Counted from the stretch's first letter, positions 6,983 to 62,048 are shown. The stretch is DNA of 64,000 nt from Bilabrum cf. latius (GCA_965178125.1 OZ237760.1:310001-374000); one strand, 5' to 3'. Notes: a model not told the origin generated them from the letters alone. A program made the numbers and translations.

Positions 6983-7234
6983 CTCGCAGCCTTTACTAAT
7001 CGTATGGACTTTTCTTCAAGCCTGGTTAGGCTAACTCTACTAATTAGCGACTCACAGCAAGTACAGACCGAGACGATACTCCGTGATAGAGTACTTTCTG
7101 GTCACTGGGACAGGGACGCCGAGGTCGGCCTCAACAACAATTTTATTATCTTCATCTCGTGGGGGTCGCAACAACATCTGGTCGCAAGGAGAGTGCGAGG
7201 GCAAGCAAATTGCGCAATCTACAAACTAAGAACG

Positions 7235-26378: not shown

Positions 26379-26567
26379 TGAGCCTCGGTATTTTTACAGC
26401 GATACCTATTCGTCTCCAGAGTAGATGCGAGTGCGCGTAGTTGCAGTTGCTCCAAGCTCGAGCAGCTTTGTGCCTCACGACGCTATGAACGACCGGAGCT
26501 GGTATTTCCCAAACGGCCTGACTGAACACATTCATAGAAGCTACAACTAAACACTATTTGCAACTCA

Positions 26568-32500: not shown

Positions 32501-32938
32501 GGAAATGTGTGGTTGCACATCGAGACGTGTCACATGCAGCTAATGGCTGGGCCACATCGGTACCTCTCACGAGTCGAGTCGATCCACGACCTCAAAGCCA
32601 AGCCTAAGACTAATTGAACATGCGTTGTAGAGCAGCAGCAAAATAAGCACTATGTCCCAGCGCATGCGTACGGTCTGAAAAGGGTGTACTACACATGCAG
32701 CCGGAGCAGCGTCCGACTCCTGATCGTCCTGCCCCTCAGGCTTTGTGGCATTGTATTGTGCAGATTCCAAGTAAGCGAATACGCTCGCTACGTCCTTCTT
32801 GGAACCTATGCGAGACATGGAGCCCCGGTGGTTCTTAGCCCGCGGAGAATCCGCGCCGTCGTCGCTCGAATCGTGCTCAATTGTGCGCTAGGAGCGCGCC
32901 AGCAGTAAAGCCTAGGAACCCCTTCTACTATCGCTCAT
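26568..32938 (-). CDS. Voltage-gated cation channel with cyclic-nucleotide-binding domain (KCNH/HCN-like), ~2,000 aa
   Basis: HPFQTVRMRWD, YLTGWFTLDLVSSIP, S4 KLIKLTRLVRLF, pore TTTGFGD, C-linker, FFGE...YCDL. One intron near 32480-32568; TAGs at 32178, 28767, 28476, 26625 and two near the start; TGA stop. Confidence 0.88.
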
Positions 32939-33128: not shown

Positions 33129-35150
33129 TCAATAATCAAACTGCGAGGCCCACCTGGCCTCATGGTCCTCGATGGAATCGTCGGTAGGCACTGGTCCGAA
33201 CGGCGCCCAGTCGTCTCCCTTCTTGCCGTCGAAAGGAGATGAGCCTTTGCCGACGCCTTCCGAACCACCGGCGGAATCCACCCTAGAGCTCTCTCGCAGG
33301 TTCTAAGGGTCGAAGGAAGGATACGTGACGTCTGTGCGCCCGTAGTACACAGGCTGCCGCTGACCGCGGCCAGTCACGAACTGCCTAGAGCCCTCAATGT
33401 ACGGGTCGCTAAAGAAAGAAAAGTACTGCTTGCCCGTCTGCAGAAGCGTCTGCGCGAGTGCCAGCGCATTCTGTCCGTCTTTGGATGCTGCTTCAAGCCC
33501 CGACCGACCCCCCACCACGGTCAGATTTGCCGGGTACGCCTGCGCTCCCCCGGGGTAGGCAGGTACGCCCGCACCGGACAGGACGGGCAAGGCCGTCGGC
33601 AGCATGTTTGTTGTTTCGTTCGGGTCGTTCTTGAGGTCGAACAGCTCGTCGTAGCTGTTTTCCCTGTGGATCAGCTTGTACCCGCCCCCTCGGATCGCAC
33701 GCATCTCGCCGTATTCGTGGAATGTAAGCGAGTCTTCCGCGTCCAAGCCTAGCACGAGCAACTCGGAGTCGGAATCGGTCAGCGGCGCATTCTGCGATGA
33801 GGAAGACGCGCGGGAGGAATGCCTGAGCAGGCCACCGCCCGACACCGAGCGACTCTTCCTGATCCGATCCTTGATCCGATCCGCCTCCCCTGGGGAGAGC
33901 AGCAGCGAGCTGTAGTCCCGTCCCGCCACGTTGTCCTTCTTGGGGAACGACAGGCCGACGTATCCCAGCAGCGTGGTGGCAAAATCGACCACCATGACGG
34001 GTTCCTGCCTGGTGACGCCGCCCGCTATCGAGCCCGGGTGCATGATCATCAGCGGGATCTTTAGTGCGGTGTCGAAGGCGTTCAAGGGCCAGAAGCTGTT
34101 GCCCTTGCCCACGACCCCGTGGTGCGTGAGCGAAAAACCATGGTCCGACGCGAACGTGACCACCGTGTCATTTTCGATTCCGAGTGATCGGATCGAGTCG
34201 AGCACGGTGCCGATCGCGGTGTCCATCGCCTCGGTGGCGGCGTAGTACCCCGCCCAGCACTGCCTGTCGGTGAGACAGCCTTCCGTGAGCCCGCTCGTGT
34301 GGTAGGCGTAAGGGTACTCCTTCAGCCGAGGCAGGTCTCGGAACGTCGCGTTAAGGTACTTGTCGCAGAGGCCCTTGGGGTGCATCGAGTCGCACCGTCC
34401 GTCGGGGCCCGTGTAGGGGGAGTGCGGGGAGGTGAAGTGGAGGAGGTGCAGCCACGGTGTAGAGGGGTCCTTGGCGTTGTATCCTCTGATCGCGGAGATG
34501 GCGTCTTCTGCGAGCACGTCTGTGATGTACACATCGTGCAGAGTGTCGCACGTTCCGTTGATCACCAGCGGGGGGTCTCTGTAGCTCCCGCCTCCAGATT
34601 GGTGCACGAACCAGTGGTCTTCGAATCCGTGCTGGTTTGTCTCATTCTGGGCGCCAGTGTGGAGCTTGCCACTGATACCGCAAAAGTAGCCAGCTTTTTT
34701 GAATTCGTCGGAGTACCAGGCTTCTTGCGAGGTGGGCATGTACTGTATAGCAGGCTAGTTGTTGCACCCGTTGCCACCCGAGATCCAGTCCTCCACGCCG
34801 TGCTGGGTTGGGAGCCTCCCCGTCAGGTAGCTAGCGCGAGACGCGCTGCACACAGGGGTATTGCAAACCGCGTTTGTGAACCGATGTCCGTTCGCCGCAA
34901 TGCTGTCCAGCACTGGAGTCGTTAGCTCAGAGTTACCGTACGCCGACGTCGCCCACTGTCCCATGTCATCTGCGCGTATTGGTGCGGCAATGGCAGGGGA
35001 GGTAATAATATACGGTACCTGAAACACGTAGCTATTCCACACTGCTGACGCTTAACACTTACCGGCTAGAATCACGAGTACGTTTGGCTTCTTGCCGGCC
35101 GTTGCACGGTTCGCAACAGCCAGCAGCAATGCTGCCATCATGGACCGCAT
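33129..35150 (-). CDS. Secreted formylglycine-dependent sulfatase
   Basis: Signal peptide, KPNVLVILA|DDMG, CSASRASYLTGR, GKLH, SDHG, GK, ELFDLKNDPNETTN. TAG at 34755 and 33303; TGA at 33129. Confidence 0.9.
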
Positions 35151-36819: not shown

Positions 36820-37323
36820 GTTGAACGGTTCGTTCGTGCCTTTAACCGAGTTCTGTGTGGCATAGAAGGCACCTGGTGGCGGAAGGGGCAACTGGCGGGA
36901 TGTGATGAGTGCATCACAAGCAGGGACAGACAGACTGCACTGCACTCAGCTGGAAAGCTGGCAGTTGTTGACAGTGCACGTATCCTCCCATTCTGGCAGC
37001 ACGAGACTTCTACACGCGGCCATTCTTGTCAATAGCATCACACATTGTCTGGCACCCCCTGCTCCCCCTCGCCCCCACATTGAACATAGATCGGGCCACC
37101 GCCCACAGCATCCAGGATGGAACCGCTCTGCTGCTCGTCCGACCAGTCCCAAGGCCGAGCACCGCCAGGAATGGGCAGAGCACCGCCCGTCTCAGGAGAA
37201 CTCAAGACCGCTGCATACAGCGGTACGAAGGCGCGAGTGTATGGCACGTGCGGCCGTGCTCTGCTCGGCAGTGATCGCTGCGGGAAAGCGCGCGTTTCTT
37301 TGTGAGTAAAGCTGGCCGTGCAC

Positions 37324-37555
37324 GCCTGTTGCAGCAGCTGTTCCGGTTCCGTCTCCAGTTGGCGCCGCAGCGGAACCATGGGCCGGCGGGCGGCGGCAGT
37401 ACCTGAGCCAAACTTTTCGGCTCGGGGACGGGACAACTCCACCCAAGCCGACTATTTTTGTATTTGAACTGGGTTTGCCGCGATTTCAGCGATCACAGGG
37501 GCTGCGCTCCCCCCTCAGGGGGGGCTGAACGAGACAAAACGCTTGGTGCAGAATT
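37324..37555 (+). repeat. ~232-bp direct repeat, copy 1 (immediately upstream of NTPase-nuclease gene copy 1)
   Basis: GCCTGTTGCAGCAG...GGTGCAGAATT, near-identical to 41718-41950. Confidence 0.95.
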
Positions 37556-37567
37556 GTCTGTTCAACA

Positions 37568-40500
37568 ATGAGCAAGAGGTTGGCATTGTGCTCATCCAGA
37601 CTACGCAGCCAAATGCATCTATTCAAATCGATGGTGCGCCTACCACGGTCTGTAGGTGCCTTGACGAAGGCCAGTTGGAACATGCTACGTGTGAGCCACT
37701 CATTTCGATTCGATTCGCTCGTTTGCGGCACCCGAGACGAAGCCGTTGACCATCTGAACCCGTTTTAAGACTGATCTGTATTTTGCGTTATCCACGTTCC
37801 CACTGCAGGGCGGCAACAATCTGAGCGTCTGTTCACTTCCTCGAGGTGGCTCTGCTTAGCGCTGGTCAACAGCGGGGCTGATCATGTGCCATCCTAGGCA
37901 GACTAAGTTGATATGGAGACCAGGGCAGTCGCTGGCACAAGCGAGACTTCTTTCAGGGGAACCTGATAGCCATAAGGATGTGCCTTCCCTCCAGTTCGTG
38001 TGGAAACAGAAGATGAACGCTGATGCTATGGTGGTTTCATGGCAGCCGCTTTCCAAATCGACCCCGCTCAGCGCAACCATTAGGCGTGTACAGGTGATCC
38101 AGCAAGCCCAGCAGGATGGAATAGTCATGGCCAAAGCCTTGGACGCCGGTACAGTCAAGCAACTTGAATCAATCTCGAAGGACTCACCAACATCGAGCAT
38201 CGGCGCGAAGCTGGAGCTTCCGAGGACCTAGCTTGAATCCGCAGAGCGCCTTCACGAGGTGGGGCTGCTTTCGGAGCTTGGGTCCGATGTCGTCCTGGAG
38301 TATCTCAGGAGCGACAAGGCGCAGGCAGACCTGGACAGCTTCAACGTGCAGGCCCAGGAAAGGATGTCGGAGGAAGAGATGCGGATACATGAGCTCAACA
38401 AAGACCTAGAGCTGATGGGATTGCCCCACTCCGACTACCTCTACAAAGCCAAAAAAGTGGTGGTTCCCGACATTGAGAAATTCGTCACTGATCTCAGTGA
38501 GCTTGCGGAGAAGCAGCGTTTTGAGATACCGCCGCCGTTCAAGGGCGCGACTCTGCTCGATGCCGTCCGAGAGCGCACATAGCGAGTTGTGGACGCGACC
38601 GAATCGTGGATGGCCGATGCCGTGCTGGATTGTCTTCGGTTGATCGGAGACGCAGTCGTCCACGTGCATGCTTCCACCGGACGAAGCTTGGATATGATCG
38701 CCGAGACCTACGTCTTGCCAATTGTGGACTCCGGGTTCAGGACGCAAAGGGAAAGGCTCCTGCATCGACTTCTCTACGAAGCGTTCAAGTCGAGGCTGAA
38801 TATTACCCGTGGTGGGGTTGTGCTGGGATATGAAGGCTTTGGCAAGTCTCAGCTGGTGCGCCAGCTGGTGCTTGGCAAGGAGCTGTGGCAGTGGACCACA
38901 GACAACCGCAAAGGCCATGTCGGGATGTATGTCCATAACCCGAACGAATTGGACGATGCGCTTCGATTGGGATGCCCCCCGGCACTCCTGGCTGCAGGTC
39001 TGTGCAACGCGGGAGTGATTGAACGCGAGAAAGCACCAGCCTGGACGGAGTCTGGCGAGTCGGGATTGGATTCTTTTGACGCAGCGGGATGGGTGTATAA
39101 AAACGATGTTGATGCCCTGCTGGTGATCGACGAGGCGCAGCAGGCGAAGGTAGATCCTGCTGGTGAGGCAGTGACCAAGGCATTGATCGCGCGGTCGAGG
39201 AAGTTCTGGGACTCCCTTGATGCATGCTGTCAGAATCCGCACTTTCCGATGACGGTGATCACGGGCACAGGGTCAGAGGTAGCGTACTTGGTGTATGATC
39301 GGCCTCGAGGCGTGAAATGGAAGATGCAGAAGGACAAGTTCCACATGCACTGGCTCGACTACGAGTACTCTGAGGTGGAGATTTGCCTCATGCTGACCCG
39401 GCAGGGTAAGATGACACAGCTGCCCAAGGATGGCATGCGCTGGACACCGTCGTACTCTCCGGACGATAGGCCGCTCGATATTGAGTCACTGACGGCCATG
39501 GTGGACCAGGTTCATCTAGAGGACGTGACTTTGGCCCTTGCGTTGGCTGTTGCGAGAGCTTCTGGATGCGACCCCGCGTCAGACCCGAAGTCAAGCAGTG
39601 CAGAGCCAGTAGTGGATAGCCACTGGATTGAGACGGGGCAGGTGGTGCATCCCAGGCTCGAGCACGTAGTGGAGGGAATCCAGGCCGATGCCAGGGGGGA
39701 CCTCGAGGCGTGGCAACAAATCAAGGTCAAGCCCGATCGGCTGACCTTGCAGGCTGCCACTGAGGCGCTGAAAGACGAACGGGTGCTGCATGCAGCCTAT
39801 GCATCACGATCCAAGATCCTGCGACGTGTGTGGCAGACCGGCATGACAGCCCGCAGCTTGAGCGGGATTAATGCGGAAGACCAGCAGATGAACAAGAAAC
39901 TGCGAGTCTGGTACGAGTCCATGGCTAGGGACACTGACGGGTTCCAGCAGATCATGCTAGCGCTCCTAGAATGTATGCGCGACGAGGACTCGGACTGGCA
40001 GCGTGATGCTTTCGCTAACCCTCTCAAGCCACCAAAACCTGTCGCGGTTGAGGCGCTGGTAGAGAAGTTCGAGCTTATGCACCCTGACGTCAAAGTTGAG
40101 GATACTGATCAGTTCGAAGAAAAGCTTAGCGAGTGGAGGCTTAAGCAGCTTGTGGCCTACCGGGCGGCATCGGAGCAAGCTGGCTTTGAAGACGAAAACC
40201 TGCCTGCTACAGTCGGTTTCATGAGCAGTATGTTTGCTTTCCTGGCGTTGCGGTGGAGCCTGACGCGGGGTCTGTTCGTGACGAGGCGGGAGTTCTGGGC
40301 GATCCACAAGCAGACGGGCGACCTCGGTAAAGACTACGAGCTAGTGGTGGCCGAGTCTTTGCACCGCAACTTCGTGTCCAAGGTGCTGGCCAGGGAGCTC
40401 ATGCCGTCTGTCCCTCGGTACCTGTGGGAGAAAGAGGACGGTGCTCTAAAGGAGGATCTTGTGAAACACGACAGGACGCAGGTGTTTGAAAGCGGGAAAA

Positions 40501-41333
40501 TCTCGATCCAGCTGACTCAGACCAATTGGGGCTAGAACCCGAGCAGGGAGGAGCTCCTCGGTCGAGTGCTGAAGGAGGTGCCTGACAAATATGGAGGAGA
40601 TCTGGTGGTGATCCTCGAAGATACATAGGAGCGGGATCCGCAGAAGTACCACTTGATTCGGATCCAGGTCAAGGCAGGCAGTGTCGACAGCAAAATCGAG
40701 CCGCGGGGATTGAACGGTTTCTTGTCTCGCGAGAAGGCGCAGACTGTCCTGCAGCTGTACGCCGGAGCCCTTGGTGTGCGACCTGACCAGGTTGTCATGC
40801 ATAGGTTGCTGGTGACTCCGAAAGAGCTGGTACCCAGTATTACTGATCTGTTTCCCAAGCGTAATCGCAGCGAAGACCGTGAGATGGAATCAGGCATTGC
40901 AGAGCCGAGTACCTCTGAGCCTATCGGGGCCGATGACCAAGGCAAGGCAGAGTCGGACATGGATGGTACCTACGACAGGTCGAACCTCTTCTACCTCGAT
41001 CACAACGACTACCACGAGTTTCTGTTCGCGGATGCGCGGTTGCTCTCTGCGAGGATCTGGGCCAACTCTGCGAGCAAGTTCGAGGAGAGGCAGCGGCGGA
41101 GGAAGCTAGCAGAAGAGCTCGCCAATAGCTTGAGACGCTTAGGCTTGTTGAACGATTCGCGCAAGGTCAAGGCGGGCGAGCCTTCCAACATGGAGAATTG
41201 GTCGGAGCAATTCGGAATGGATGGCACGTCTAAGGACCTTGGTAGAGGCCGTGGCCGAGGCCGAGGCAAGGGGAAGGGCCGAGGCAAGGGAAAGGACCTG
41301 AGCGAGGCCCGCGCGGCCAGCTCGGAAGATTGA
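37568..41333 (+). CDS. P-loop NTPase + PD-(D/E)xK nuclease protein (Crinkler/RHS-like), copy 1, ~1,215 aa, with mitochondrial-presequence-like N-terminus
   Basis: Exon 37568-37690, GT-AG intron 37691-37808, exon 37809-41333 with TAGs at 37857, 38229, 38580, 40533 and 40626. Walker A GYEGFGKS, Walker B LLVIDEAQ, nuclease GKDYE...GGDLVV...IQVK; TGA stop. Confidence 0.75.
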
Positions 41334-41633
41334 TTGGTAGGATCCTGGGAGATCCATGTTGGTGATGCCAGCAAGGTCTCTGAGATTGAGGTCGCTCGGT
41401 GGGCGCAGGACCCGCTCGAGGTGCAGGCCCAGATGCGACGAAGTGATGCGGAGGAGAGAAAATAGAATATGTTTGAGTCAAAGCACACACCACCCAATTG
41501 CAACGACCACCCGAGGGGGTAATCGCACTGGGTAGGTCGAACGGACCAGCAATCTCACGCCATGGGCTCCGCAAGCTGGACTCCATGGGGGAGTTGCGCT
41601 GCTTGCGGTCCATCCGCGTTCGCGATCAGGAGC

Positions 41634-41669
41634 GAGAGAGAGAGAGAGAGAGAAGGACAGAGAGAGAGA
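41634..41669. repeat. (GA)n microsatellite
   Basis: Directly visible. Confidence 0.9.
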
Positions 41670-41717
41670 AAGGCCGCAAGCGCCGCGCATCAGGCTCTGG
41701 TCCAGCTACCGCACCAA

Positions 41718-41950
41718 GCCTGTTGCAGCAGCTGTTCCGGTTCCGTCTCCAGTTGGCGCCGCAGCGGAACCATGGGCCGGCGGGCGGCGGCAGTACCTGA
41801 GCCAAACTTTTCGGCTCGGGCACGGGACAACTCCACCCAAGCCGACTATTTTTGTATTTGAACTGGGTTTGCCGCGATTTCAGCGATCACAGGGGCTGCG
41901 CTCCCCCCTCAGGGGGGGGCTGAAAGAGACTAAACGCTTGGTGCAGAATT
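41718..41950 (+). repeat. ~233-bp direct repeat, copy 2
   Basis: Near-identical to 37324-37555. Confidence 0.95.
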
Positions 41951-42972
41951 CCGCAACTAGACACCCCCGTCGACAGGCAACGTGTTGCACTCGGCTGGAT
42001 CCAATCGAGGCTAGCTGCAGACCTCACTCAGGACTCATGACGAACTCGGAATCAAGGGGTCCCGGATTGCTCTGGCATTGAAACACACTAGAACGATTTC
42101 GGTAGGCTGGCCGAAGCGCATCAATCTAACAAATCCTTCCAGTACCTGCACGATGCACCCATTCACGCGGTCTCCTCCTTGGTCTCCGCCACCCCAGACC
42201 CGGCCGCCAACTTGGCTCCACGCTCCTCCTCCTCCGCTGCAGCACCCGCTGTCTCCTTCACTACGCTACCCCCAAGCACCACCCGACCGGCAGACCCGCC
42301 CGCAGCACCGCTCTCCCGCACGACACCGCCAGCTCCCACCGCCAGCCCCCCTCGCTGCTCCCTGGCGAGCGCATCCTGAAGCACCCGTTCCGCCTCGGCC
42401 ACCGAGGGAATCTCCTTCTGAATACCAGTCAGGTCGTGGAAATCGCGCCCCGCGATCGTCGGGGCCACAAACCCGGATCGGATCACCCAGTCCCCGAAGG
42501 ACTCGAACTCCTGGGCCTGGCCCCGCCGGAGCAGAGGACCGCCGGCCTTGGCGTCGTCGGGCACACGCAGGCGGAGCAGCCCATCGGGACCCTCGCTCGC
42601 CAGCGGAACCGGCGCCGCGCCAGCAGAGGACTCATACCCCAGCGACAAACCCCCGGATGCGGACCCGCCGGCAGTGCCCAGGCCCTTGCCCTGCTGCCCT
42701 CCCTCCTCGAGCGCCAGCCCGCGGGTGGCCGCCGACTTGGCGGGTCGCCTGGTGGCCCTGTACAGCCGCAGCAGAGAGGCTAGCGTCCTGACGATCTCGT
42801 CCTCGTCGGCGCCCTCCAGGACGAGTTTGGCCACCCGGGTGCCGTCGTGCGCGCCCCCGAGGAACACGTTGTACAGCCCGGGGGCCTTGCCCACCAGTGC
42901 GATCTCGGCCACGTAGGGCCTACAGCACCCATTGGGGCAACCCGACGATCGGATCACGATGTCCGTGTCTCG
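41951..42972 (-). pseudogene. Duplicated 3' fragment of the sulfite reductase gene and its 3' flank
   Basis: Matches 47670-48693. Keeps SGCPNGC but lacks all upstream domains, including the first siroheme/Fe-S Cys pair. Confidence 0.9.
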
Positions 42973-43735
42973 CCAAGGGGTTTCTGCTACCTTGGCCATT
43001 CCTTTTCACTTCTTGAGACGCCGTGTTAGCTCCACATTCATATTCAGTTCAAAGTTTGAATAGGGCTCCACCACATCGGGAGGCAATCCATTTGTCCCAC
43101 TAGTTCGCTCGACACTTTCATCAACTCAACAAGGCCGCCTCGATCGCGTACATCTGCGCCAAGCTGCTGCGCGCGATCCTACAACTTCACCGACAGCATA
43201 CTGGCACGCATGAGTGCGTACCTGCTAGTCCTACCTGCATACACCCCTCGGAAAAGCCGAGACAATCGCATAACCGTGAGACCAAGTTTAGAGCCGCTGA
43301 ACTCATGTCTGCCAGGATTCCCCTGAGCGGGACTAAATGTCCATATCAACGCGCATATCCAAATGTCGTATTCCGGTATGCACCAAAACTCAAGCCAAGC
43401 CAAACCTGCCAAGCTATACGATATCTTGGATATATTCTTGATGTTGTACAAGTTCCGTCAGGTGGCGTGCGCGGCGCCTCAGCGCTGTCACGGTGGCACC
43501 CCACAAAATATGATTTCGTGCGCGGATGCTATAGGCTAGCTGAGCTAATGGACTTCAGTAGGGGCAGGATGCTAACGATGCGCCCAGGAATATAGTCAAT
43601 GCGGCGGATCCGGGAGTAGCGCAAGGGCACTTCGCTCAAGCCGACCCGGATACAGGCGCACCAAGGTTTGTTGTGTGTGATTATCTCAATACGATTACTT
43701 CTGCGGACGGATGCCATAGACTAGACTGTTCTACA

Positions 43736-46700
43736 ATGATGAGGACGCTGGCACTGTGCTCGTCCAAACGTCGCAGCCAAATGCATCTATTCAAATCGAT
43801 GGTACGCCTACCACGGTCTGTAGGTGTCGTGACGAAGGCCAGTTGGAACATGCTACGTGTGAGCCACTCATTTCGATTCGATTCGCTCGTTCGCGGCACC
43901 CGAGACGAAGCCTTTGAGAATCTGAACCCGTTTTAAGACTGATCTGTATCTCGCGTTACCCGCTTTCCTCCTGCAGGGCGGCAACAATCTGAGCGTCTGT
44001 TCACTTCCTCGAAGTGGCTCTGCTTAGCGCCGGTCAACAGCAGTGATCATGTACCATCCAAGGCAGACTAAGTTGATATGGAGACCAGGGCAGTCGCTGG
44101 CACAAGCGAGACTTCTTTCAGGGGAACCTGATAGCCATAAGGATGTGCCTTCCCTTCAGTTCGTGTGGAAACAGAAGATGAACGCTGATGCTATGGTGGT
44201 TGCATGGCAGCCGCTTTCCAAATCGACCCCGCTCAGCGCAACCATTAGGCGTGTACAGGTGATTCAGCAAGCCCAGCAGGATGGAATAGTCATGGCTAAT
44301 GCCTTGGACGCCGGTACAGTCAAGCAACTTGAATCAATCTCGAAGGACTCACCAACATCGAGCATCAGGGCGAAGCTGGAGCTTCCGAGGACCTAGCTTG
44401 AATCTGCAGAGCGCCTTCACGAGGTGGGGCTGCTTTCGGAGCTTGGGTCCGATGTCGTCCTGGAGTATCTCAGGAGCGACAAGGCACAGGCAGACCTGGA
44501 CAGCTTCAACGTGCAGGCCACCATGCTTTCCAAAGCAGAACAAGATAGGATGTTGGAGGAGGAGATGCGGATACATGAGCTCAACAAAGACCTAGAGCGG
44601 ATGGGATTGCCCCACTCCGACTACCTCTACAAAGCCAAAAAAGTGGTGGTTCCCGACATTGAGAAATTCGTCACTGATCTCAGTGAGCTTGCGGAGAAGC
44701 AGCATTTTGAGATCCCGCCGCCGTTCAAGGGCGCGACTCTGCTCGATGCCGTCCGAGAGCGCACATAGCGAGTTGTGGACGCGACCGAATCGTGGATGGC
44801 CGATGCCGTGCTGGATTGTCTTCGGTTGATCGGAGACGCAGTCGTCCACGTGCATGCTTCCACCGGACGAAGCTTGGATATGATCGCCGAGACCTACGTC
44901 TTGCCAATTGTGGACTCCGGGTTCAGGACGCAAAGGGAAAGGCTCCTGCATCGACTTCTCTACGAAGCGTTCAAGTCGAGGCTGAACATTACCCGTGGTG
45001 GGGTTGTGCTGGGATATCAAGGCTTTGGCAAGTCTCAGCTGGTGCGCCAGCTGGTGCTTGGCAAGGAGCTGTGGCAGTGGACCACAGACAACCGCAAAGG
45101 CCATGTCGGGATGTATGTCCATAACCCGAACGAATTGGACGATGCGCTTCGATTGGGATGCCCCCCGGCACTCCTGGCTGCAGGTCTGTGCAACGCGGGA
45201 GTGATTGAACGCGAGAAAGCACCAGCCTGGACGAAGTCTGGCGAGTCGGGATTGGATTCTTTTGACGTAGCGGGATGGGTGTATAAAAACGATGTTGATG
45301 CCCTGCTGGTGATCGACGAGGCGCAGCAGGCGAAGGTAGATCCTGCTGGTGAGGCAGTGACCAAGGCATTGATCGCGCGGTCGAGGAAGTTCTGGGACTC
45401 CCTTGATGCATGCTGTCAGAATCCGCACTTTCCGATGACGGTGATCACGGGCACAGGGTCAGAGGTAGCGTACTTGGTGTATGATCGGCCTCGAGGCGTG
45501 AAATGGAAGATGCAGAAGGACAAGTTCCACATGCACTGGCTCGACTACGAGTACTCTGAGGTGGAGATTTGCCTCATGCTGACCCGGCAGGGTAAGATGA
45601 CACAGCTGCCCAAGGATGGCATGCGCTGGACACCGTCGTACTCTCCGGACGATAGGCCGCTCGATATTGAGTCACTGACGGCCATTGTGGACCAGGTTTA
45701 TCTAGAGGACGTGACTTTGGCCCTTGCGTTGGCTGTTGCGAGAGCTTCTGGATGCGACCCCGCGTCAGACTCGAAGTCAAGCAGCGCAGAGCCAGTAGTG
45801 GATAGCCACTGGATTGAGACGGGGCAGGTGGTGCATCCCAGGCTCGAGCACGTAGTGGAGGGAATCCAGGCCGATGCCAGGGGGGACCTCGAGGCGTGGC
45901 AGCAAATCAAGGTCAAGCCCGATCGGCTGACCTTGCAGGCTGCCACTGAGGCGCTGAAAGACGAACGGGTGCTGCATGCAGCCTATGCATCACGATCCAA
46001 GATCCTGCGACGTGTATGGCAGACCGGCATGACAGCCCGCAGCTTGAGCGGGATTAATGCGGAAGACCAGCAGATGAACAAGAAACTGCGAGTCTGGTAT
46101 GAGTCCATGGCTAGGGACACTGACGGGTTCCAGCAGATCATGCTAGCGCTCCTAGAATGTATGCGCGACGAGGACTCGGACTGGCAGCGTGATGCTTTCG
46201 CTAACCCTCTCAAGCCACCAAAACCTGTCGCGGTTGAGGCGCTGGTAGAGAAGTTCGAGCTTATGCACCCTGACGTCAAAGTTGAGGATACTGACCAGTT
46301 CGAACAAAAGCTTAGCGAGTGGAGGCTAAAGCAGCTTGTGGCCTACCGGGCGGCATCGGAGCAAGCTGGCTTTGAAGGCAGAAACCTGCCTGCTACAGTC
46401 GGTTTCATGAGCAGTATGTTTGCTTTCCTGGCGTTGCGGTGGAGCCTGACGCAAGGTCTGTTCGTGACGAGGCGGGAGTTCTGGGCGATCCACAAGCAGA
46501 CGGGCGACCTTGGTAAAGACTACGAGCTAGTGGTGGCCGAGTCTTTGCACCGCAACTTCGTGTCCAAGGTGCTGGCCAAGGAGCTCATGCCGTCTGTCCC
46601 TCGGTACCTATGGGAGAAAGAGGACGGTGCTTTAAAGGAGGATCTTGTGAAACACGACAGGACGCAGGTGTTTGAAAGCGGGAAAATCTCGATCCAGCTG

Positions 46701-47519
46701 ACTCAGACCAATTGGGGCTAGAACCCGAGCAGGGAGGAGCTCCTCGGTCGAGTGCTGAAGGAGGCGCCTGACAAATATGGAGGAGATCTGGTGGTGATCC
46801 TCGAAGATACATAGGAGCGGGATCCGCAGAAGTACCACTTGATTCGGATGCAGGTCAAGGCGGGCGGTGTCGACAGCAAAATCGAGCCGCGGGGATTGAA
46901 CGGTTTCTTGTCTCGCGATAAGGTGCAGACTGTCCTGCAGCTGTACGCCGGAGCCCTTGGTGTGCGACCTGACCAGGTTGTCATGCATAGACTGCTGGTG
47001 ACTCCGAAAGAGCTGGAACCCAGTATAACTGATCTGTTTCCCAAGCGTAATCGCAGCGAAGACCGTGAGATGGATTCAGGCATTGCAGAGCCGAGCACCT
47101 CTGAGCCTGTCGGGGCCGATGACCAAGGCAAGGCAGAGTCGGACATGGATGGTACCTACGACAGGTCGAACCTCTTCTACCTCGATCACAACGACTACCA
47201 CGAGTTTCTGTTCGCGGATGCGCGGTTGCTCTCTGCGAGGATCTGGGCCAACTCTGCGAGCAAGTTCGAGGAGAGGCAGCGGCGGAGGAAGCTAGCAGAA
47301 GAGCTCGCCAATAGCTTGAGACGCTTAGGCTTGTTGAACGATTCGCGCAAGGTCAAAGCGGGCGAGCCTTCCAACATGGAGAATTGGTCGGAGCAATTCG
47401 CAATAGATGGCACGTCTGAGGACCTTGGTAAAGGCCGAGGCCGAGGCCTAGGCAAGGGAAAGGGCCGAGGCAAGGGAAAAGACCTGAGCGAGGCCCGCGC
47501 GGCCAGCTCGGAAGATTGA
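43736..47519 (+). CDS. P-loop NTPase + PD-(D/E)xK nuclease protein, copy 2, ~1,221 aa
   Basis: Exon 43736-43858, intron 43859-43976, exon 43977-47519. Same TAG positions as copy 1; differences are substitutions plus in-frame 3-nt and 21-nt indels. Confidence 0.75.
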
Positions 47520-47883
47520 TTGGTAGGATCCTGGGAGATCCATACGGATAGTTGATGGAAATGACGGAGTACGTAGTCTACTGGCTCGAGCGGCTTCTAC
47601 CAGGATCCAACACCTGTAGGATAAATCAAGCCCGAGAATCCTAAGGATCCGGATGGATCGGATCAGATCCCGCAACTAGACACCCCCGTCGACAGGCAAC
47701 GTGTTGCACTCGGCTGGATCGAGGCTTGCTGCAGACCTCACTCGGGACTCCTGACGAACCCGGAATCCAAGATCTAGGGGCCCCGGATTGCTCTGGCATT
47801 GAAACACACTAGAACGATTTCGGTAGGCTGGCCGAAGCGCATCAATCAAACAAATCCTCCCAGTGCCTGTACGTTGCACCCAT

Positions 47884-49734
47884 TCACGCGGTCTCCTCCT
47901 TGGTCTCCGCCACCCCAGACCCGGCCGCCAACTTGGCTCCACGCTCTTCCTCCTCCGCTGCAGCACCCGCCGTCTCCTTCACTACGCTACCCCCGAGCAC
48001 CAACCGACCAGCAGACCCGCCCGCAGCACCGCTCTCCTGCACGACACCGCCAGCTCCCACCGCCAGCCCCCCTCGCTGCTCCCTGGCGAGCGCCTCCTGA
48101 AGCACCCGTTCCGCCTCGGCCACCGAGGGAATCTCCTTCTGAAGACCAGTCAAGTCGTGGAAATCGCGCCCCGCGATCGTCGGGGCCACAAACCCGGATC
48201 GGATCACCCAGTCCCCGAAGGACTCGAACTCCTGGGCCTGGCCCCGCCGGAGCAGAGGACCGCCGGCCTTGGCGTCGTCGGGCACACGCAGGCGGAGCAG
48301 CCCATCGGGACCCTCGCTCGCCAGCGGAACCGGCGCCGCGCCAGCAGAGGACTCATACCCCAGCGACAACCCCCCGGCTGCGGACCCGCCGGCCGTGCCC
48401 AGGCCCTTGCCCTGCTGCCCTCCCTCCTCGAGCGCCAGCCCGCGGGTGGCCGCCGACTTGGCGGGTCGCCTGGTGGCCCTGTACAGCCGCAGCAGAGAGG
48501 CTAGCGTCCTGACGATCTCGTCCTCGTCGGCGCCCTCCAGGACGAGTTTGGCCACCCGGGTGCCGTCGTGCGCGCCCCCGAGGAACACGTTGTACAGCCC
48601 GGGGGCCTTGCCCACCAGTGCGATCTCGGCCACGTATGGCCTGGAGCACCCATTGGGGCACCCCGACGATCGGATCACGATGTCCGTGTCTCGAAGCCCC
48701 GCTGGATCCACGGCCTCTTTTTCGATCCTAGAAATAAGCGCGGGCAAGTATCGCTCCGACTCGGCCATGGCCAAACCACAGGTGGGCAAAGCCACGCAGG
48801 CGATGGAGCTGAGCCTGAGTCCGGAGAGGCGGGTCTGACCAGTCCCCTGCCGGTGATGCAGGTCTTTGGCCACCTAAGATCCAAACCGTTGAGCCCCATC
48901 AGGATCCAGAGCGAAATCGGGGTTGATAGCGCCACCATCCAGAGCCCCCGCCACGGCCGGCGCCTGGTCTCGCAGGGCCCACCGGAGCAGCGCGTGGCTC
49001 GGCTGTTCCCTGGCCGCACGCAGGCCCATCTCTACGATCTCAGGGGGCAGCTGCACGCCTGCCAACCGCATGCCGTGTGCCTCGAGGAGTCTCTGCACCG
49101 CCAGCGCGTTCTGAGGCTGCACGCTTCCCACCACCACGTTCTGGTTAGCCGTCAGCCTGAAGTCACCGTCGTGCACCTCCGCCAGCTTACGGAGTGCGGA
49201 CCTCATGGCGTGGCCTGGATCATCGCGAACCCTCCCGTTCTGCACCCACAGCAGGGCGTGGAACAGACCGTCCGTGCCTGCCCTCCAGCCGTACTGGTCC
49301 GTGGTTGAATCGAACTCCACGGCTCGCGGCGCCTGCAGCCTCCGACCCAGGCGACGCTCTACCTCCCCGCGGAACCAGGCAAGCCCCCTGTCGTCGATCG
49401 TGTACTTCATCCTGGCGTGCTTTCGGTTTACCCTGTCCCCGAAGTCCCTCTGCACGGTCACGATCGCCTCCGCAAGCTCGTTGACCTCCTCTGGCCTGCA
49501 GAAGCAGAGGGCCTCGGCGAGGCGTGGGAAGGTGGCCTTGTTCCCGTGGGTGGCGCCCATGCCCCCGCCCACCGTCACGGTGAAGCCAACCAGCCGCTCC
49601 CTGTGCGTGGGCTGCCTGGCGTACCTGACCCCTGCCTCCTCGTCCAGCCCCTTCTTGCTCTCGTCAACCCCTTCCTCCGATTGTTCCCCCTCCTCCTCCT
49701 CCTCGCCGTCGTCGCTCTTGCCCTCGATCACCGC

Positions 49735-49766
<32 letters not shown>

Positions 49767-52470
49767 CACCGGATACGGGTCCCTCGGCGCCTTTGACCAC
49801 CTCCAGCACCCCCCGCTCCCCCTGCTCCCCCTCGGGCACGCGCTCCGTCACCGCCACGAGGCCAAGGTCGTGTGCCAGCACGTCCACGTCGTTGTTGGGC
49901 GGGATGGCGAACGCGATCTTGAACTTCCTGGGCAGGTATGTCTTCCCGTAGATGGGCTCCTCCTCCAGCGGCGCCCCCCCACCCACTTGCTTCTTGTCCA
50001 GCCACACCTCGTGGTAGGCTCCGCTCCTGGGGGTCAGGTGGTCGCTCACCGACTGCACGCAGCGGAGCACCTCGTGGTACACGCCGTCGTCCGGAGCCGA
50101 AGATCCGAGCATCGCATTGCGGTTGACATCACCGCATGCAGCGAGGCTGTCCATGAGCGCAGCGTTGAAGGCACGCACCGTCGCCTTGAGCTCCTTCTTC
50201 ACTACACCGTGCAGCTGGTACGCCTGACGGGTGGTCAGCTTGAGAGTGCCGTTACCCCTGGTCTGGGCCAGTTCGTCCATGACCACCCACTGCGCAGGGG
50301 TAGAGATACCCCCCGGCAGCCTCACTCGGATCATGAATGAATACGCGGGCTCCAAACCGGCTCGCATGCGGGCGGGCGCAATGTCCCTATCGTGCTACAT
50401 GTAGATCCCATGAAACTTGGAGATCTTGGTGTCCTCGAATGGGATGGCCCCCGTGCTCTCATCCAGCAGAGAGGAGGCAAGAGTCCCCCTCAGGTGGTTG
50501 GAGTCCTCCTTGATGTCGTCGTCTGGACGGTGAGCTGCCGCAGGGGCGGTATCCCCCTCCCCACTCTGTTCCCTGTCAGAGTCCTTCCCCACCCCTAGAG
50601 ACTCCCACAGGGAAGGCGCCCACTGGCGGTACCCGTCCTCGAACCCGTCGTCGTCCTGGTCATCGCCCAGGCCGATGGGGGTCAGGGGGTCCGCGCCCAG
50701 CTGGGCCAGCCGGGCGTACACGTCCTTCGAGGCCTTGTTGTAGAGGTGCTTCTGGTCCTCCCTGGGCCAGTAGTGGCTGTCCCCGAGTCCGAACACCGTG
50801 AACTTGACTGAGTCGTCTAGCTGCGGCATGTCCGTTGACTGCAGGCCCTTCCAGAACTCGCGGCAGTTGGCCGGCACGTCGCCCTGGCCGGCCGTGGACA
50901 CGATAACCGCCACGCGGGGAGTGGCGGTCAGCCTCCGGGGGTCGCACTCGTCAGCCGCCTTGCACTCCGCCTTGAGGCCCCTCTTCTTTGCCTCACTCGT
51001 CACACGCTTGGCCACGGCAGAGGCGTTGCCGCCGTCGCTGCCGTAGAGCACCAGCAGCGACTGGTCCCCGCCCTCCCCGTCTCCCGAATCGCCCGCCTTT
51101 CCGGCTCCGAGTCGAGACGCCATCCGGCCGAAGGATCGGATGAGGCTCTCCCGGCCCAGAGCGGCGGCGCTGGCAGCGGCTGGGTCAGACGAGGTGGATG
51201 CGGAACCGGACCCGCCGGCCCCTGCTCCCTGCCCCACCTAGGCTCCGCTGCGGCGGGTCATGAGCGACAGCACCGTTTCCTGCTCCGCGAATGCGCGCAG
51301 CTGGGCGCTGACGTGTGACGAGTGCACCTCGAGCGCTCCGTCGGGGGTACCCTCCCGCCTCGGGTCCCACGCGAACAGAGGCCACGCCCCCGATGTGACG
51401 AGTGCGCCCACGGCACCCCCAAACGGTCCCCGACTGGCTCCGGCGCTGCTCACCAGCGTCGCGCCATCCCCACCTTCGCTTGTTCCCTGGATTGTTCCCT
51501 CGGACGCGTGGTCCTCCACGGCGCCCTCTGCCCCCGCCGACGCGCCGGCTAGCACCACCAGCACGGCGGGCCCCTCAAAGCTGCCCGCCCGCCTGGCAAG
51601 CTCCACCAAGTGACTCTCCCCGCCCTCGGTCGCCGCGGCGGACGGAACCGGTTCCGCAGCGACAAGCGCCGCGGCGCCGACGAAGGCCGAGCCGAACTGC
51701 AGCGCGAGAGCGGCGAGGGCCTTGGAGCGGCCTGCCTCGCTCTTCAGCGGGAGGCGAGCATCGGTAACGGATGCTGCTCGCACGGATTCGGGCAGCGCGG
51801 CTTCCACTGCGGCTTTCTGCGCTGCCTTGCGGCCCGCACGGCTGGCGGGGTTTGCGCCGTCTGCCTGCTGCGCGGCCTGCTTGCCCTTCGCCTTGGTTTT
51901 CGCGGCGAGTTCACGCTGTTCCTTTTGCCGAGTGAGCGTACGGAGAGCGGCAAATGCATCTTGCTCGCCCGCTCTGGCTGCGACGACCAGCACGGCTTTT
52001 CTGCCGGAGCGAAGCAGCGAGCGAGCGCCAGACAGCTGCTCGCCGAGCGCCTGCTCGCTCCCTCCCACGACGATGAAACGGCCGCCGGCGGAGCCTGCCG
52101 CCCCGGTGGCATCCTGCGCAGCAATCATCCCTAGACCAGATTCGGCCGTGCGGGCCTCGCTCACGGACGCTGCGGGGAGTGACCGGCGGATGACGTCCGC
52201 GACGCATCTCGCAAGACCCAGACGGGCGGGAACGTCAGGCGCCCGGCTCTCCGATTCCCCCACCAGACTAGGACCAGCAGATATGCTCTGGTGTGCCTGA
52301 TGTGCTTGTTCGTGTGAATGCTGCACATCGTTCGAGGCAGACTTGGAGACTTGCTGGTCGACGGGGCGTGTTGACGATGCGTCAGCACCGGCCCCAAGCG
52401 CAATGGCACCGGCCGCGGCAACTGCAGCGACAGCCGCGCCGGCGAGTGCAGCCCTAGCATTATCAGCCAT
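47884..52470 (-). CDS. MET5: Assimilatory sulfite reductase beta (hemoprotein) subunit, Met5-like fusion with flavodoxin domain
   Basis: LYGSDGGNA, STAGQG, FGLGDSHYW flavodoxin; KFHGIYM*HDRD, TTRQ, LPRKFK, CVALPTC, SGCPNGC. TAGs at 51238, 50395 and 48874; TGA stop. Confidence 0.92.
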
Positions 52471-61817: not shown

Positions 61818-62048
61818 AAGGCGTCTGATGCAACTGCTGTGCACTACGTGTACGTTTGCACAAAGGGAGACTGAAAGGCGTCTGATGCAACTGCTGTGCA
61901 CTACGTGTACGTTTGCACAAAGGGAGACTGAAAGGCGTCTGATGCAACTGCTGTGCACTACGTGTACGTTTGCACAAAGGGAGACTGAAAGGCGTCTGAT
62001 GCAACTGCTGTGCACTACGTGTACGTTTGCACAAAGGGAGACTGAAAG
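61762..62048 (+). repeat. 57-bp unit x5 containing the last codons and TGA of the methyltransferase gene
   Basis: AGGCGTCTGATGCAAC...GGGAGACTGAA at 61762, 61819, 61876, 61933 and 61990. Confidence 0.97.

What the first reader, a model, noticed from the sequence alone, without database searches (positions are those of the whole stretch)
37568..47519. Hidden pair of putatively mitochondrion-targeted NTPase-nuclease proteins
Only with TAG=Gln and one phase-0 intron do the fragments form two ~1,220-aa ORFs. The first 91 residues of copy 1 have no Asp/Glu and about 15 Arg/Lys, ending ..QARLLSGE, which looks like a mitochondrial presequence. Next come Walker A/B motifs and a C-terminal E...D...QxK restriction-endonuclease-like motif. 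NTPase+REase is the core architecture of Crinkler/RHS (CR) effectors, which normally carry ubiquitin-like or helical headers and act in nuclei. An organelle-addressed version could act in mtDNA elimination or inheritance conflict, cell death, or defence against endosymbionts or viruses (inference).
Basis: partly seen in the sequence, partly recalled or inferred. Interest (0 to 1): 0.8.

Follow-up and report, generated by a model that had tools for sequence, protein, structure and literature searches.

The report
Hidden duplicated NTPase–nuclease gene pair
Two neighbouring gene copies that are only readable if the stop codon TAG means glutamine encode a large protein joining an ATP-driven switch to a DNA-cutting domain; its proposed delivery to mitochondria is still unproven.

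Summary
The pair is real. With TAG read as Gln, two frames of 1,191 and 1,197 codons open. With the proposed 118-nt phase-0 intron they give proteins of 1,215 and 1,221 aa. TAG is sense in this genome: in the neighbouring sulfite reductase a TAG aligns with a conserved Gln of E. coli CysI. The copies are 97% identical, with dN/dS 0.36 and only in-frame indels.

No curated library names the protein. An exhaustive search found 44 relatives, all fragments of 54-575 aa.

The centre has Walker A/B motifs. It models as an AAA+/STAND fold whose weak best matches are ORC/Cdc6, Apaf-1/CED-4 and TnsC. The C-terminus models as an alpha-beta-beta-beta-alpha-beta core carrying conserved E...D-X21-QxK. Its weak best match is the MspJI restriction endonuclease, and three relatives give sub-threshold DUF4365 hits.

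The acid-free basic N-terminus exists. However, such runs are common in arbitrary frames of this GC-rich DNA, and that stretch evolves almost neutrally.

Verdict: a new NTP-gated nuclease family with Crinkler/RHS-like architecture. Organellar targeting remains untested.

The parts
37568..37690 (+). copy 1, proposed exon 1 (41 codons, starts at ATG)
   Evidence: First in-frame ATG after TGA at 37526, with A at -3. Open in both copies. 13 differences in 123 nt, 10 of them in the first 36 nt.
37691..37808 (+). copy 1, proposed phase-0 intron (GTGAG...CAG, 118 nt)
   Evidence: Same style as the kinase-gene intron. 11 differences in 118 nt against 12 in 418 nt of flanking exon sequence, Fisher p=0.007.
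37809..41333 (+). copy 1, exon 2 (1,174 codons plus TGA); in-frame TAG codons at 37857, 38229, 38580, 40533 and 40626
   Evidence: Substitutions by codon position 15/15/36. dN/dS 0.36.
37809..37958 (+). exon-2 part of the acid-free basic N-terminal region (50 codons, ends ..QARLLSG)
   Evidence: no Asp/Glu before residue 92. Not covered by any relative, since coverage starts at exon-2 residue 83.
38055..38744 (+). conserved alpha-helical N-terminal domain, unnamed
   Evidence: Relatives P0026, P0030, P0003 and P0009 align here. Helices at pLDDT 83-95 in the model.
38745..39296 (+). P-loop NTPase core (AAA+/STAND-like); Walker A 38826-38852, Walker B 39114-39140, sensor-1-like strand 39249-39275
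   Evidence: Motif coordinates. Strands and helices. Foldseek top matches are ORC/Cdc6, Apaf-1, CED-4 and TnsC at E 0.03-0.07. Sub-threshold AAA_16 in 8 of 32 aligned sequences.
39297..40322 (+). helical linker (lid, possible winged-helix, long helices)
   Evidence: Secondary structure. Conserved blocks. An HTH is not shown.
40323..40817 (+). restriction-endonuclease-like (PD-(D/E)xK) domain; E 40353-40355, D 40599-40601, Q 40665-40667, K 40671-40673
   Evidence: Alpha-beta-beta-beta-alpha-beta core at pLDDT 70-92. Foldseek top match MspJI, prob 0.84-0.96. DUF4365 sub-threshold in 3 of 12.
41241..41294 (+). Arg/Gly/Lys-rich C-terminal tail
   Evidence: 18-nt repeat family D6.
43736..43858 (+). 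copy 2, proposed exon 1
43859..43976 (+). copy 2, proposed intron
43977..47519 (+). copy 2, exon 2 (1,180 codons plus TGA); TAG codons at 44025, 44394, 44766, 46719 and 46812
37321..37555 (.). flank X, repeated at 41715-41950 (98%)
41944..42972 (-). 96% copy of the 3' end of the sulfite reductase gene (true copy 47664-48693), lying between the two genes

Best explanation
These are two recently duplicated, selectively maintained nuclear genes of a GC-rich eukaryote that reads TAG as glutamine. Each encodes a ~1,200-aa protein built from these parts: a poorly conserved basic N-terminus, a conserved helical domain, an AAA+/STAND-type P-loop NTPase, a helical linker, a C-terminal PD-(D/E)xK-type nuclease with a D-X21-QxK active site, and an Arg/Gly-rich tail.

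Most likely mechanism (inferred): the NTPase acts as a nucleotide-dependent switch or oligomerisation module that licenses the nuclease to cut nucleic acid. This is the logic of Crinkler/RHS NTPase-HTH-REase toxins and of prokaryotic STAND or Argonaute-linked nucleases, so the likely role is in genetic conflict or defence.

Shown: the genes, the code, purifying selection, the motifs and their conservation, and the predicted folds. Inferred: enzymatic activity, gating by NTP and biological role. Unresolved: where in the cell the protein acts.
For: Genetic code:
- A TAG codon in the sulfite reductase ORF aligns with the conserved Gln of CysI in a block matched at E 2.8e-128.
- A TAG lies inside a continuous sulfatase alignment.
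- Four other ORFs of 1,200-2,000 codons open only with TAG=Q.
- 11 of the 12 long ORFs that have a stop end in TGA.

Genes:
- The copies are 97.0% identical over 3,821 nt.
- Exon-2 substitutions fall 15/15/36 by codon position, chi-square p=0.0013.
- dN/dS is 0.36 and dS is 0.038.
- Indels are 3 and 21 nt.

Family:
- 44 relatives at E<=0.001, 29 of them at E<=1e-10, with 26-77% identity, tile exon-2 residues 83-1132.
- 4 of 23 fragment ends fall just before a Gln of the query, twice at DEA|Q, binomial p=0.024. This fits a TAG=Gln source for some fragments.

NTPase:
- Walker A and B motifs are present.
- The model has mean pLDDT 73.8 and pTM 0.74, with Walker B on a strand and the P-loop before a helix.
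- Every Foldseek row shown is an AAA+ or STAND ATPase. In the top 10, 6 are ORC/Cdc6-type and the rest are Apaf-1, CED-4, TRIP13 and TnsC.
- AAA_16 matches below threshold in 8 of 32 aligned sequences.

Nuclease:
- The core models as alpha-beta-beta-beta-alpha-beta at pLDDT 70-92. The conserved E lies in helix 1, D at the start of strand 2, and QxK at the end of strand 3.
- 7 of the top 10 Foldseek PDB rows are restriction-type nucleases or Avs3, led by MspJI at E 0.016-0.019 and prob 0.84-0.96.
- MspJI uses a DX20QAK motif with Gln in place of the second acid (PMC3479186, passages).
- DUF4365 matches 3 of 12 relatives at the same profile positions, best E 0.0087.
- DUF4365/DREN is a proven PD-(D/E)xK DNase. 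Its putative active-site residues are Gln62 and Lys64, and the Q62A/K64A protein served as the inactive control (PMC10810196, passages; PMC12205087, passages).
Against: - No structural match reaches E<=0.001 in either PDB search, and TM-scores are only 0.17-0.25.
- The window protein itself matches no Pfam family at E<=0.01. Its best AAA_16 score is 15.5 bits against a cut-off of 32.6, and it has no DUF4365 hit.
- PDB sequence and profile searches found nothing. Best E-values were 0.37, 0.076, 0.056 and 0.21.
- The alignments behind the models are shallow, at 12 and 32 rows, mostly fragments.
- The P-loop segment itself is modelled at pLDDT below 50.
- 3 of 17 relatives have a degenerate Walker A, so some family members may not hydrolyse NTP.
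- There are no expression data, and no activity has been shown.
- GC3 is 0.67-0.68 against 0.78-0.81 in four neighbouring genes. That could mean low expression or a foreign or mobile history.
Confidence: 0.6

Rival explanations
1. One reading: the NTPase-nuclease carries a cleavable mitochondrial (or other organellar) presequence and acts on organelle DNA.
For: - With the exon-1 model the first 91 (copy 2: 90) residues have no Asp/Glu and 15 (16) Arg+Lys, against 15.7% Asp+Glu in the rest.
- The first 41 residues have net charge +9.
- The 18-residue window from residue 12 has hydrophobic moment 0.63, against a protein-wide 95th percentile of 0.44.
- There is no hydrophobic signal-like segment; the maximum KD over 15 residues is 0.65.
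- The ATG, the frame and the splice sites are kept in both copies.
- The intron diverges more than the flanking exon sequence, p=0.007.
- No relative covers this region, as expected for an exchangeable address.
Against: - No targeting predictor was available.
- Acid-free, stop-free runs are common in arbitrary frames here: 21 of at least 90 codons and 259 of at least 50 codons.
- The first 36 nt of exon 1 differ at 10 positions, and the first 87 nt of exon 2 show 6 changes, mostly non-synonymous. There is therefore no sign of protein-level constraint before about position 37896.
- An alternative start at the ATG at 37884, just before constraint begins, would leave only about 25 acid-free residues.
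- I recall Arg/Gly-rich tails as typical of nuclear or RNA-binding proteins (recalled).
- 91 residues is long for a presequence (recalled).
Confidence: 0.25
2. The unit is, or derives from, a mobile element, and the protein serves the element's own transposition or maintenance (a TnsC/TnsA-like ATPase plus nuclease) rather than host defence.
For: - Homology between the copies starts 10 nt before the ATG and ends 24 nt after the stop.
- Flank X abuts copy 1, flank Y' follows copy 2, and X'|Y lie contiguous between them like an empty site.
- GC3 is lower than in neighbouring genes.
- TnsC appears among the top 10 structural matches of the NTPase.
- A review states that NTPase+REase modules in prokaryotes are linked with transposable elements (PMC5289972, section 11).
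Against: - There are no inverted repeats around either copy, and no target-site duplication is apparent at the junctions.
- No transposase, integrase or reverse-transcriptase domain was found.
- Only two copies are visible in 64 kb.
- The gene uses the host's TAG=Gln code and a host-style intron.
- The arrangement is equally explained by recombination or template switching within a segmental duplication.
Confidence: 0.12
3. The frames are dead: pseudogenes or chance open frames interrupted by genuine TAG stops.
For: - Five in-frame TAGs per copy.
- No full-length relative in about 15 billion predicted proteins.
- No Pfam family.
Against: - TAG is read through in conserved housekeeping domains of the same window.
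- Substitutions show a third-position excess, and dN/dS is 0.36.
- Indels are only in-frame.
- 44 relatives share conserved catalytic motifs.
Confidence: 0.03
4. The protein is a non-catalytic, ORC/Cdc6-like DNA-binding ATPase or scaffold, and its nuclease-like domain is inactive because Gln replaces the second acidic residue.
For: - The best NTPase structural matches are ORC/Cdc6.
- The motif is QxK rather than (D/E)xK.
Against: - QxK is catalytic in MspJI, as DX20QAK, and is the putative active site of the DUF4365 nuclease.
- E, D and QxK are kept in 7-8 of 8 relatives.
Confidence: 0.1

Closest known systems
Crinkler/RHS (CR) effectors with NTPase + HTH + REase C-termini (Zhang et al. 2016, known to me only through the review PMC5289972, passages and section 11)
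   Same: The same order of a P-loop NTPase followed by a REase-superfamily nuclease, with a variable N-terminal region in front. Also multi-copy or tandem, and eukaryotic.
   Different: No sequence or profile link could be tested. The Pfam Crinkler header and RHSP were not matched. The N-terminus is a basic, acid-free stretch rather than a ubiquitin-like LxLFLAK header. An HTH between the domains is not shown. The protein is also much longer (about 1,215 aa), with an extra conserved helical domain.
MspJI-type modification-dependent restriction endonuclease, C-terminal catalytic domain
   Same: Best structural match of the C-terminal domain. It has the same variant motif, with Gln replacing the second acid at nearly the same spacing: DX20QAK in MspJI against D-X21-QVK here.
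   Different: Identity is only 8-10% and the match is weak (E 0.016-0.019, TMq about 0.2). MspJI has an SRA-like DNA-binding domain instead of an NTPase.
DUF4365 / DREN nuclease (Pfam PF14280) of short-Argonaute SPARDA systems
   Same: Sub-threshold Pfam matches of three relatives over the D...QVK core. It has a QxK active site and a PD-(D/E)xK fold, and is an effector nuclease switched on by a sensor module.
   Different: Scores of 14-17 bits fall below the 24.3-bit cut-off, and the window protein itself gives no hit. DREN is fused to APAZ and activated by Argonaute filament formation rather than by an NTPase. It is prokaryotic.
ORC/Cdc6 and STAND (Apaf-1, CED-4, Dark, Avs) NTPases; Pfam AAA_16
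   Same: Walker A/B motifs, strand order and a following helical lid. These are the top Foldseek matches. AAA_16 is the commonest weak Pfam match.
   Different: No match is significant (E 0.03-0.07). There are no repeat sensor domains (TPR, WD40 or LRR). The nuclease is C-terminal here, whereas I recall it as N-terminal in Avs proteins (recalled).
Tn7 TnsC (AAA+) with TnsA (REase-fold) transposition proteins
   Same: An AAA+ regulator working with a REase-fold nuclease. TnsC ranks 10th among the NTPase structural matches.
   Different: These are separate polypeptides in Tn7. There is no transposase here and no element ends.

Membership tests
PD-(D/E)xK (restriction-endonuclease-like) superfamily | alpha-beta-beta-beta-alpha-beta core fold | tested here: met
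   In the AF2 model the elements occur in this order at pLDDT 70-92: H60-81, E140-145, E153-159, E167-175, H186-209, E216-223. This is a prediction from a 12-row alignment, not a solved structure.
PD-(D/E)xK (restriction-endonuclease-like) superfamily | Acidic residue at the start of strand 2 and (D/E/Q)xK on strand 3, conserved in the family | tested here: met
   D at model residue 152, just before E153-159. Q174 and K176 at the end of E167-175. D is kept in 7 of 8 and QVK in 7 of 8 sequences covering the sites.
PD-(D/E)xK (restriction-endonuclease-like) superfamily | Significant structural or profile similarity to a known member | tested here: inconclusive
   Foldseek against PDB gave 0 hits at E<=0.001; the best is MspJI at E 0.016 and prob 0.91-0.96. 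Against BFVD the best E is 0.0045, and the named hits include PD-(D/E)XK, Mrr and VRR-NUC proteins. PDB profile searches were negative.
DUF4365 / DREN (PF14280) | Pfam score at or above the gathering cut-off (24.3 bits) | tested here: not met
   The window segment gives no hit. Relatives P0036, P0033 and P0022 score 16.6, 15.1 and 14.1 bits, so 3 of 12 aligned sequences match, all below threshold.
DUF4365 / DREN (PF14280) | QxK catalytic motif | tested here: met
   QVK at 40665-40673. In the DUF4365 protein TmuRE, Q62 and K64 are the putative active-site residues (PMC10810196, passages).
AAA+/STAND P-loop NTPases (AAA_16, ORC/Cdc6-like) | Walker A GxxxxGK[ST] and Walker B hhhhDE | tested here: met
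   Motifs at 38826-38852 and 39114-39140. GK[ST] is present in 14 of 17 and DE in 8 of 8 covering sequences.
AAA+/STAND P-loop NTPases (AAA_16, ORC/Cdc6-like) | Pfam family score above the cut-off | tested here: not met
   AAA_16 scores 15.5 bits against 32.6, and AAA_22 scores 14.3 against 27, for the window segment. AAA_16 is seen in 8 of 32 members, best E 0.0016.
AAA+/STAND P-loop NTPases (AAA_16, ORC/Cdc6-like) | Fold similarity to solved members | tested here: inconclusive
   All listed Foldseek rows are AAA+/STAND ATPases, but E-values are 0.03-0.2 and none reaches 0.001.
Crinkler/RHS (CR) proteins | CR header (ubiquitin-like with LxLFLAK, or one of the helical headers) | tested here: not met
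   No Pfam Crinkler match for the window proteins at E<=0.01, nor among the 32 sequences of A3 at E<=5. The helical headers of Zhang et al. could not be tested because no profiles were available.
Crinkler/RHS (CR) proteins | C-terminal module P-loop NTPase + HTH + REase | tested here: inconclusive
   The NTPase and the REase-like domain are present in that order. An HTH in the linker is not demonstrated.
Crinkler/RHS (CR) proteins | Sequence or profile relationship to known CR NTPase or REase families | not testable with these tools
   No CR sequences or profiles were obtainable. The primary paper is not held. Pfam RHSP did not appear among the matches.
Mitochondrial presequence | Positively charged, acid-free, amphipathic N-terminus without a hydrophobic core | tested here: met
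   The same composition is frequent in arbitrary frames of this DNA.
Mitochondrial presequence | Positive call by a trained predictor, or experimental import and cleavage | not testable with these tools
   No TargetP, MitoFates or DeepLoc was available, and no expression data exist.

The most novel reading that the evidence does not exclude
A Crinkler/RHS-type NTP-gated nuclease toxin whose exchangeable header has been replaced by an organellar presequence. A eukaryote would then send a restriction-like nuclease into its own mitochondria (or plastids), for example to destroy one parent's or a competitor's organelle DNA, or to police organelle-resident selfish elements. One relative (P0003) carries an N-terminal LKLFLAQ string resembling the Crinkler LxLFLAK motif. 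If that resemblance is real, the family would be tied to CR proteins and the window's genes would be a header-swapped form.
Probability: 0.12. Interest if true: 0.85.

Novelty: new variant of a known kind. Interest (0 to 1): 0.5.

Why it matters
The family is invisible to standard annotation. It needs TAG=Gln and an intron to be read. No curated library names it, and every public relative is a fragment.

It adds a distinct, long form to the eukaryotic NTPase-plus-restriction-nuclease proteins, which so far are mostly discussed as pathogen Crinkler effectors and trypanosome RHS proteins. It does so in an organism with a reassigned stop codon.

If the N-terminus really is an organellar address, this would be a concrete candidate for an enzyme that degrades organelle DNA. 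That question could be tested directly with a localisation experiment and a nuclease assay.

Tried and rejected
Searches that found no named relative:
- Pfam at E<=0.01, PADLOC, NCBIfam and PHROGs. The only hit was one weak PADLOC match for P0036, at E 0.03.
- PDB by sequence and by three profiles.
- tblastn against phage and plasmid records.
- One scan of prokaryotic genome contigs. Ten pattern hits appeared and none was confirmed. The alignment query was rejected for lack of conserved columns.
- The word-indexed protein search. It found none at similar lengths, 2 shorter proteins, and with the A3 profile only 3 already-known fragments.

Checks on the N-terminus and flanks:
- Similarity of the window's N-terminal 171 residues to the N-termini of P0003 and P0009. 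Scores fell below the shuffled means, with 270 and 164 of 300 shuffles reaching the score.
- A suppressor tRNA gene in the window: none found. Rfam: no family.
- Terminal inverted repeats around the copies: none.
- A sigma-70-type promoter scan of 37000-38000 gave nothing and does not apply to a eukaryote.

Left unchecked:
- The metagenome contigs and viral contigs collections, which were closed.
- AlphaFold DB, which was not on hand.
- The primary CR paper by Zhang et al. 2016, which is not held.

Other notes:
- The organism was not identified. A search on Amoeboaphelidium and variant codes was used only for background.

Full report
1. The observation.

The window is GC-rich, at 0.52-0.68 per 2 kb. 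Under the standard stops the region yields only pieces; the longest are 650 aa at 38583-40535 and 44769-46721. With TAG read as Gln, two stop-to-stop frames open: 37758-41333 (1,191 aa) and 43926-47519 (1,197 aa). Each holds five TAGs at homologous positions and ends in TGA.

- The ATG at 37568 (copy 2: 43736) is the first in-frame ATG after an upstream stop and has A at -3.
- Exon 1 is 41 codons.
- A GTGAG...CAG intron of 118 nt (37691-37808; copy 2: 43859-43976) is in phase 0.
- The proteins are 1,215 and 1,221 aa.
- A NEK-type kinase gene elsewhere in the window has an intron of the same kind, GTGAGG...CCGCAG.

2. Is TAG really sense?

Yes, as far as this window can show.
- The neighbouring 1,595-codon frame 47884-52671 (-) carries Flavodoxin_1 and NIR_SIR domains. 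It aligns with E. coli sulfite reductase hemoprotein at E 2.8e-128. Its TAG at codon 759 sits opposite the conserved Gln of the FHGMYQQDDRD block.
- A TAG at codon 99 of a sulfatase frame lies inside a continuous alignment to solved sulfatases.
- Four other frames of 1,200-2,000 codons open only with TAG=Q.
- Of the 12 long frames that have a stop, 11 end in TGA and 1 in TAA.
- No tRNA gene lies in the window, so the decoding tRNA was not seen.

3. Are the genes alive?

The two units are 97.0% identical over 3,821 nt. In exon 2 the 66 substitutions fall 15/15/36 by codon position (chi-square p=0.0013). Nei-Gojobori dN/dS is 0.36, with dS 0.038. The only indels are 3 and 21 nt. This is purifying selection on this frame in both copies.

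Divergence is very uneven along the unit.
- Nearly zero across the NTPase core.
- About 2.8% in the nuclease part.
- 9.3% in the intron.
- 10 differences in the first 36 nt of exon 1.

The intron diverges more than the adjoining exon segments: 11 of 118 nt against 12 of 418 nt, p=0.007. This gives modest support to the exon-intron model. Upstream of about 37896, however, nothing shows constraint at the protein level.

4. Relatives.

No curated library recognises the protein: Pfam at E<=0.01, PADLOC, NCBIfam and PHROGs. PDB sequence and profile searches were negative. So were phage and plasmid tblastn and a scan of prokaryotic genomes.

The exhaustive search of 1.84 billion representatives found 44 proteins at E<=0.001, of which 29 were at E<=1e-10 and 5 at E<=1e-30. 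All are 54-575 aa long, 26-77% identical, and tile exon-2 residues 83-1132. No full-length relative exists in that library.

Of the 23 fragments whose alignment reaches their C-terminal end, 4 stop just before a Gln of the query, twice at the conserved DEA|Q of Walker B. The background Gln frequency is 4.9%, giving p=0.024. This fits some fragments coming from TAG=Gln organisms whose genes were cut at TAG by standard-code gene callers. That reading is an inference.

5. The domains.

(a) NTPase.
- Walker A (GYEGFGKS) and Walker B (LLVIDEAQ) are present. They are conserved: GK[ST] in 14 of 17 and DE in 8 of 8 sequences covering the sites.
- The AlphaFold2 model of exon-2 residues 130-720 used 32 alignment rows and has mean pLDDT 73.8 and pTM 0.74. 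The P-loop lies between a strand and a helix, Walker B is on a strand, and a TGT-containing strand follows.
- Foldseek against PDB gives no hit at E<=0.001. Every row shown is nonetheless an AAA+ or STAND ATPase. The top ten are six ORC/Cdc6-type chains, Apaf-1, CED-4, TRIP13 and TnsC.
- Pfam AAA_16 is the commonest weak match, seen in 8 of 32 aligned sequences with best E 0.0016. The window segment scores 15.5 bits against a cut-off of 32.6.

(b) Nuclease.
- The model of residues 780-1110 used 12 rows and has mean pLDDT 67.4 and pTM 0.68. Its core is at pLDDT 70-92.
- The core has the order helix, strand, strand, strand, helix, strand. The conserved Glu of ..VVAES.. lies in the first helix, the Asp at the start of the second core strand, and Gln-Val-Lys at the end of the third.
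- This gives the motif E...D-X21-QxK. It is kept in 7-8 of 8 relatives covering each site; the exception, P0037, diverges after this point.
- Foldseek against PDB again has no hit at E<=0.001. Seven of the top ten rows are restriction-type nucleases or the nuclease-bearing Avs3, led by three MspJI chains at E 0.016-0.019 and prob 0.84-0.96. The other three rows are XopD, a desumoylase and TRiC.
- Three relatives match Pfam DUF4365 at the same profile positions, with E 0.0087, 0.025 and 0.051, all below the cut-off.
- DUF4365/DREN is the collateral DNase of short-Argonaute SPARDA systems. It has a PD-(D/E)xK fold, with Gln62 and Lys64 as the putative active site (PMC10810196 and PMC12205087, passages).
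- The BFVD search gave only weak hits. The named ones include PD-(D/E)XK, Mrr, VRR-NUC and 'restriction endonuclease' proteins.

(c) Other parts.
- A conserved helical domain precedes the NTPase.
- A ~340-residue helical linker follows it. I could not show an HTH there.
- After the nuclease comes a conserved FLFADAR.LSAR helix shared with P0027, and then an Arg/Gly/Lys-rich tail.

6. Mechanism.

The best-supported reading is an NTP-dependent switch or oligomeriser coupled to a restriction-type nuclease. Nucleotide state or assembly licenses cleavage of nucleic acid. Three systems use this logic:
- CR proteins, where the review says the REase specifies toxicity and the NTPase regulates it (PMC5289972, section 11).
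- STAND or Avs-type immune nucleases.
- SPARDA, where the nuclease is active only when assembled.

Activity, gating and substrate are inferred; nothing here measures them.

7. The mitochondrial claim.

With the exon-1 model the statement is literally true. There is no Asp/Glu before residue 92 (copy 2: 91), with 15 (16) Arg+Lys, against 15.7% acidic residues in the rest of the protein. The chance of that in a coding sequence of such composition is about 2e-7. The first 41 residues have net charge +9. One 18-residue window has a helical hydrophobic moment of 0.63, above the protein's 95th percentile of 0.44. There is no hydrophobic signal-like stretch.

Three results weaken the inference.
- Acid-free, stop-free runs are ordinary in arbitrary frames of this DNA: 21 of at least 90 codons and 259 of at least 50 codons in 64 kb. 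The composition says little unless translation is shown.
- The first ~70 codons diverge about as fast as the intron and mostly non-synonymously. That fits a fast-evolving presequence, but equally an untranslated leader, with translation starting at the ATG at 37884 just before constraint begins.
- No predictor could be run.

The window's N-terminus also shows no similarity to the N-termini of the two relatives that have one. I put organellar targeting at about one in four.

8. Comparison with known systems, and novelty.

By architecture the closest kind is the CR NTPase-HTH-REase module. Membership cannot be claimed. The header test failed. No CR profile was available. The primary paper is not held.

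At domain level the nuclease resembles the Q-variant REases (MspJI, DUF4365), and the NTPase resembles the ORC/Cdc6-STAND assemblage. All of these links are below significance thresholds.

I therefore file it as a new variant of a known kind: an unannotated, lineage-restricted family of NTPase-nuclease proteins in a TAG=Gln eukaryote.

9. The locus.

The homology between the copies starts 10 nt before the ATG and stops 24 nt after the TGA. Flank X (37321-37555) recurs at 41715-41950. A 1,029-nt copy of the sulfite reductase 3' end (41944-42972) lies between the genes. X' and Y are contiguous, like an empty site.

There are no inverted repeats. GC3 is 0.67-0.68, against 0.78-0.81 in four neighbours.

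A mobile history is possible but not shown. Recombination or template switching within a segmental duplication explains the order equally well.

Noticed in passing
whole window; e.g. 47884-52671 (-), 33129-35051 (-), 22733-27145 (-), 26568-32591 (-), 3166-6819 (-): TAG is used as a sense codon (Gln at one conserved site) throughout this GC-rich nuclear DNA. 11 of the 12 long frames with a stop end in TGA and one in TAA. Whether TAA is also reassigned was not settled.
   Followed up: partly
41944-42972 versus 47664-48693; 37321-37555 versus 41715-41950: A 96% copy of the last ~270 codons plus 3' UTR of the sulfite reductase gene sits between the two NTPase-nuclease genes, directly joined to a 98% copy of the sequence that lies upstream of copy 1. 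The order X-G1-s1-X'-Y-s2-G2-s3-Y' is not a simple tandem duplication and remains unexplained.
   Followed up: partly
protein P0003 residues 41-47 and P0009 residues 43-49 (relatives, not in the window): Two relatives share an N-terminal header with the strings LKLFLAQ and LKMFILQ, which resemble the Crinkler LxLFLAK motif. Pfam Crinkler did not match them at E<=5. The two headers are only weakly similar to each other, with 1 of 300 shuffles reaching the score.
   Followed up: partly
2-3013 (-) and 3166-6819 (-): Two adjacent long low-complexity frames (4 and 11 TAGs) are paralogues, 28% identical over 235 aa at E 3e-15. Neither has a Pfam family.
   Followed up: partly
8534-8938 versus 13358-14009; 13430-13772: The last 43 residues of the frame 6845-8704 recur at 95% identity near 13.4 kb. 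There they form part of a 110-nt unit repeated 3.1 times.
   Followed up: no
61762-62048: A perfect tandem array of a 57-nt unit, five copies, lying just beside the WD40-repeat gene 62279-64000 (-).
   Followed up: no
37809-41330 and 43977-47516 versus neighbours: Third-position GC of the two genes is 0.67-0.68, against 0.78-0.81 in the sulfite reductase, sulfatase, WD40 and channel genes. This could reflect weaker codon bias, lower expression or a different history.
   Followed up: no
47884-52671 (-): The sulfite reductase frame carries a flavodoxin domain fused in front of the hemoprotein part, and a long acidic/Ser-rich insertion inside the NIR_SIR region.
   Followed up: no
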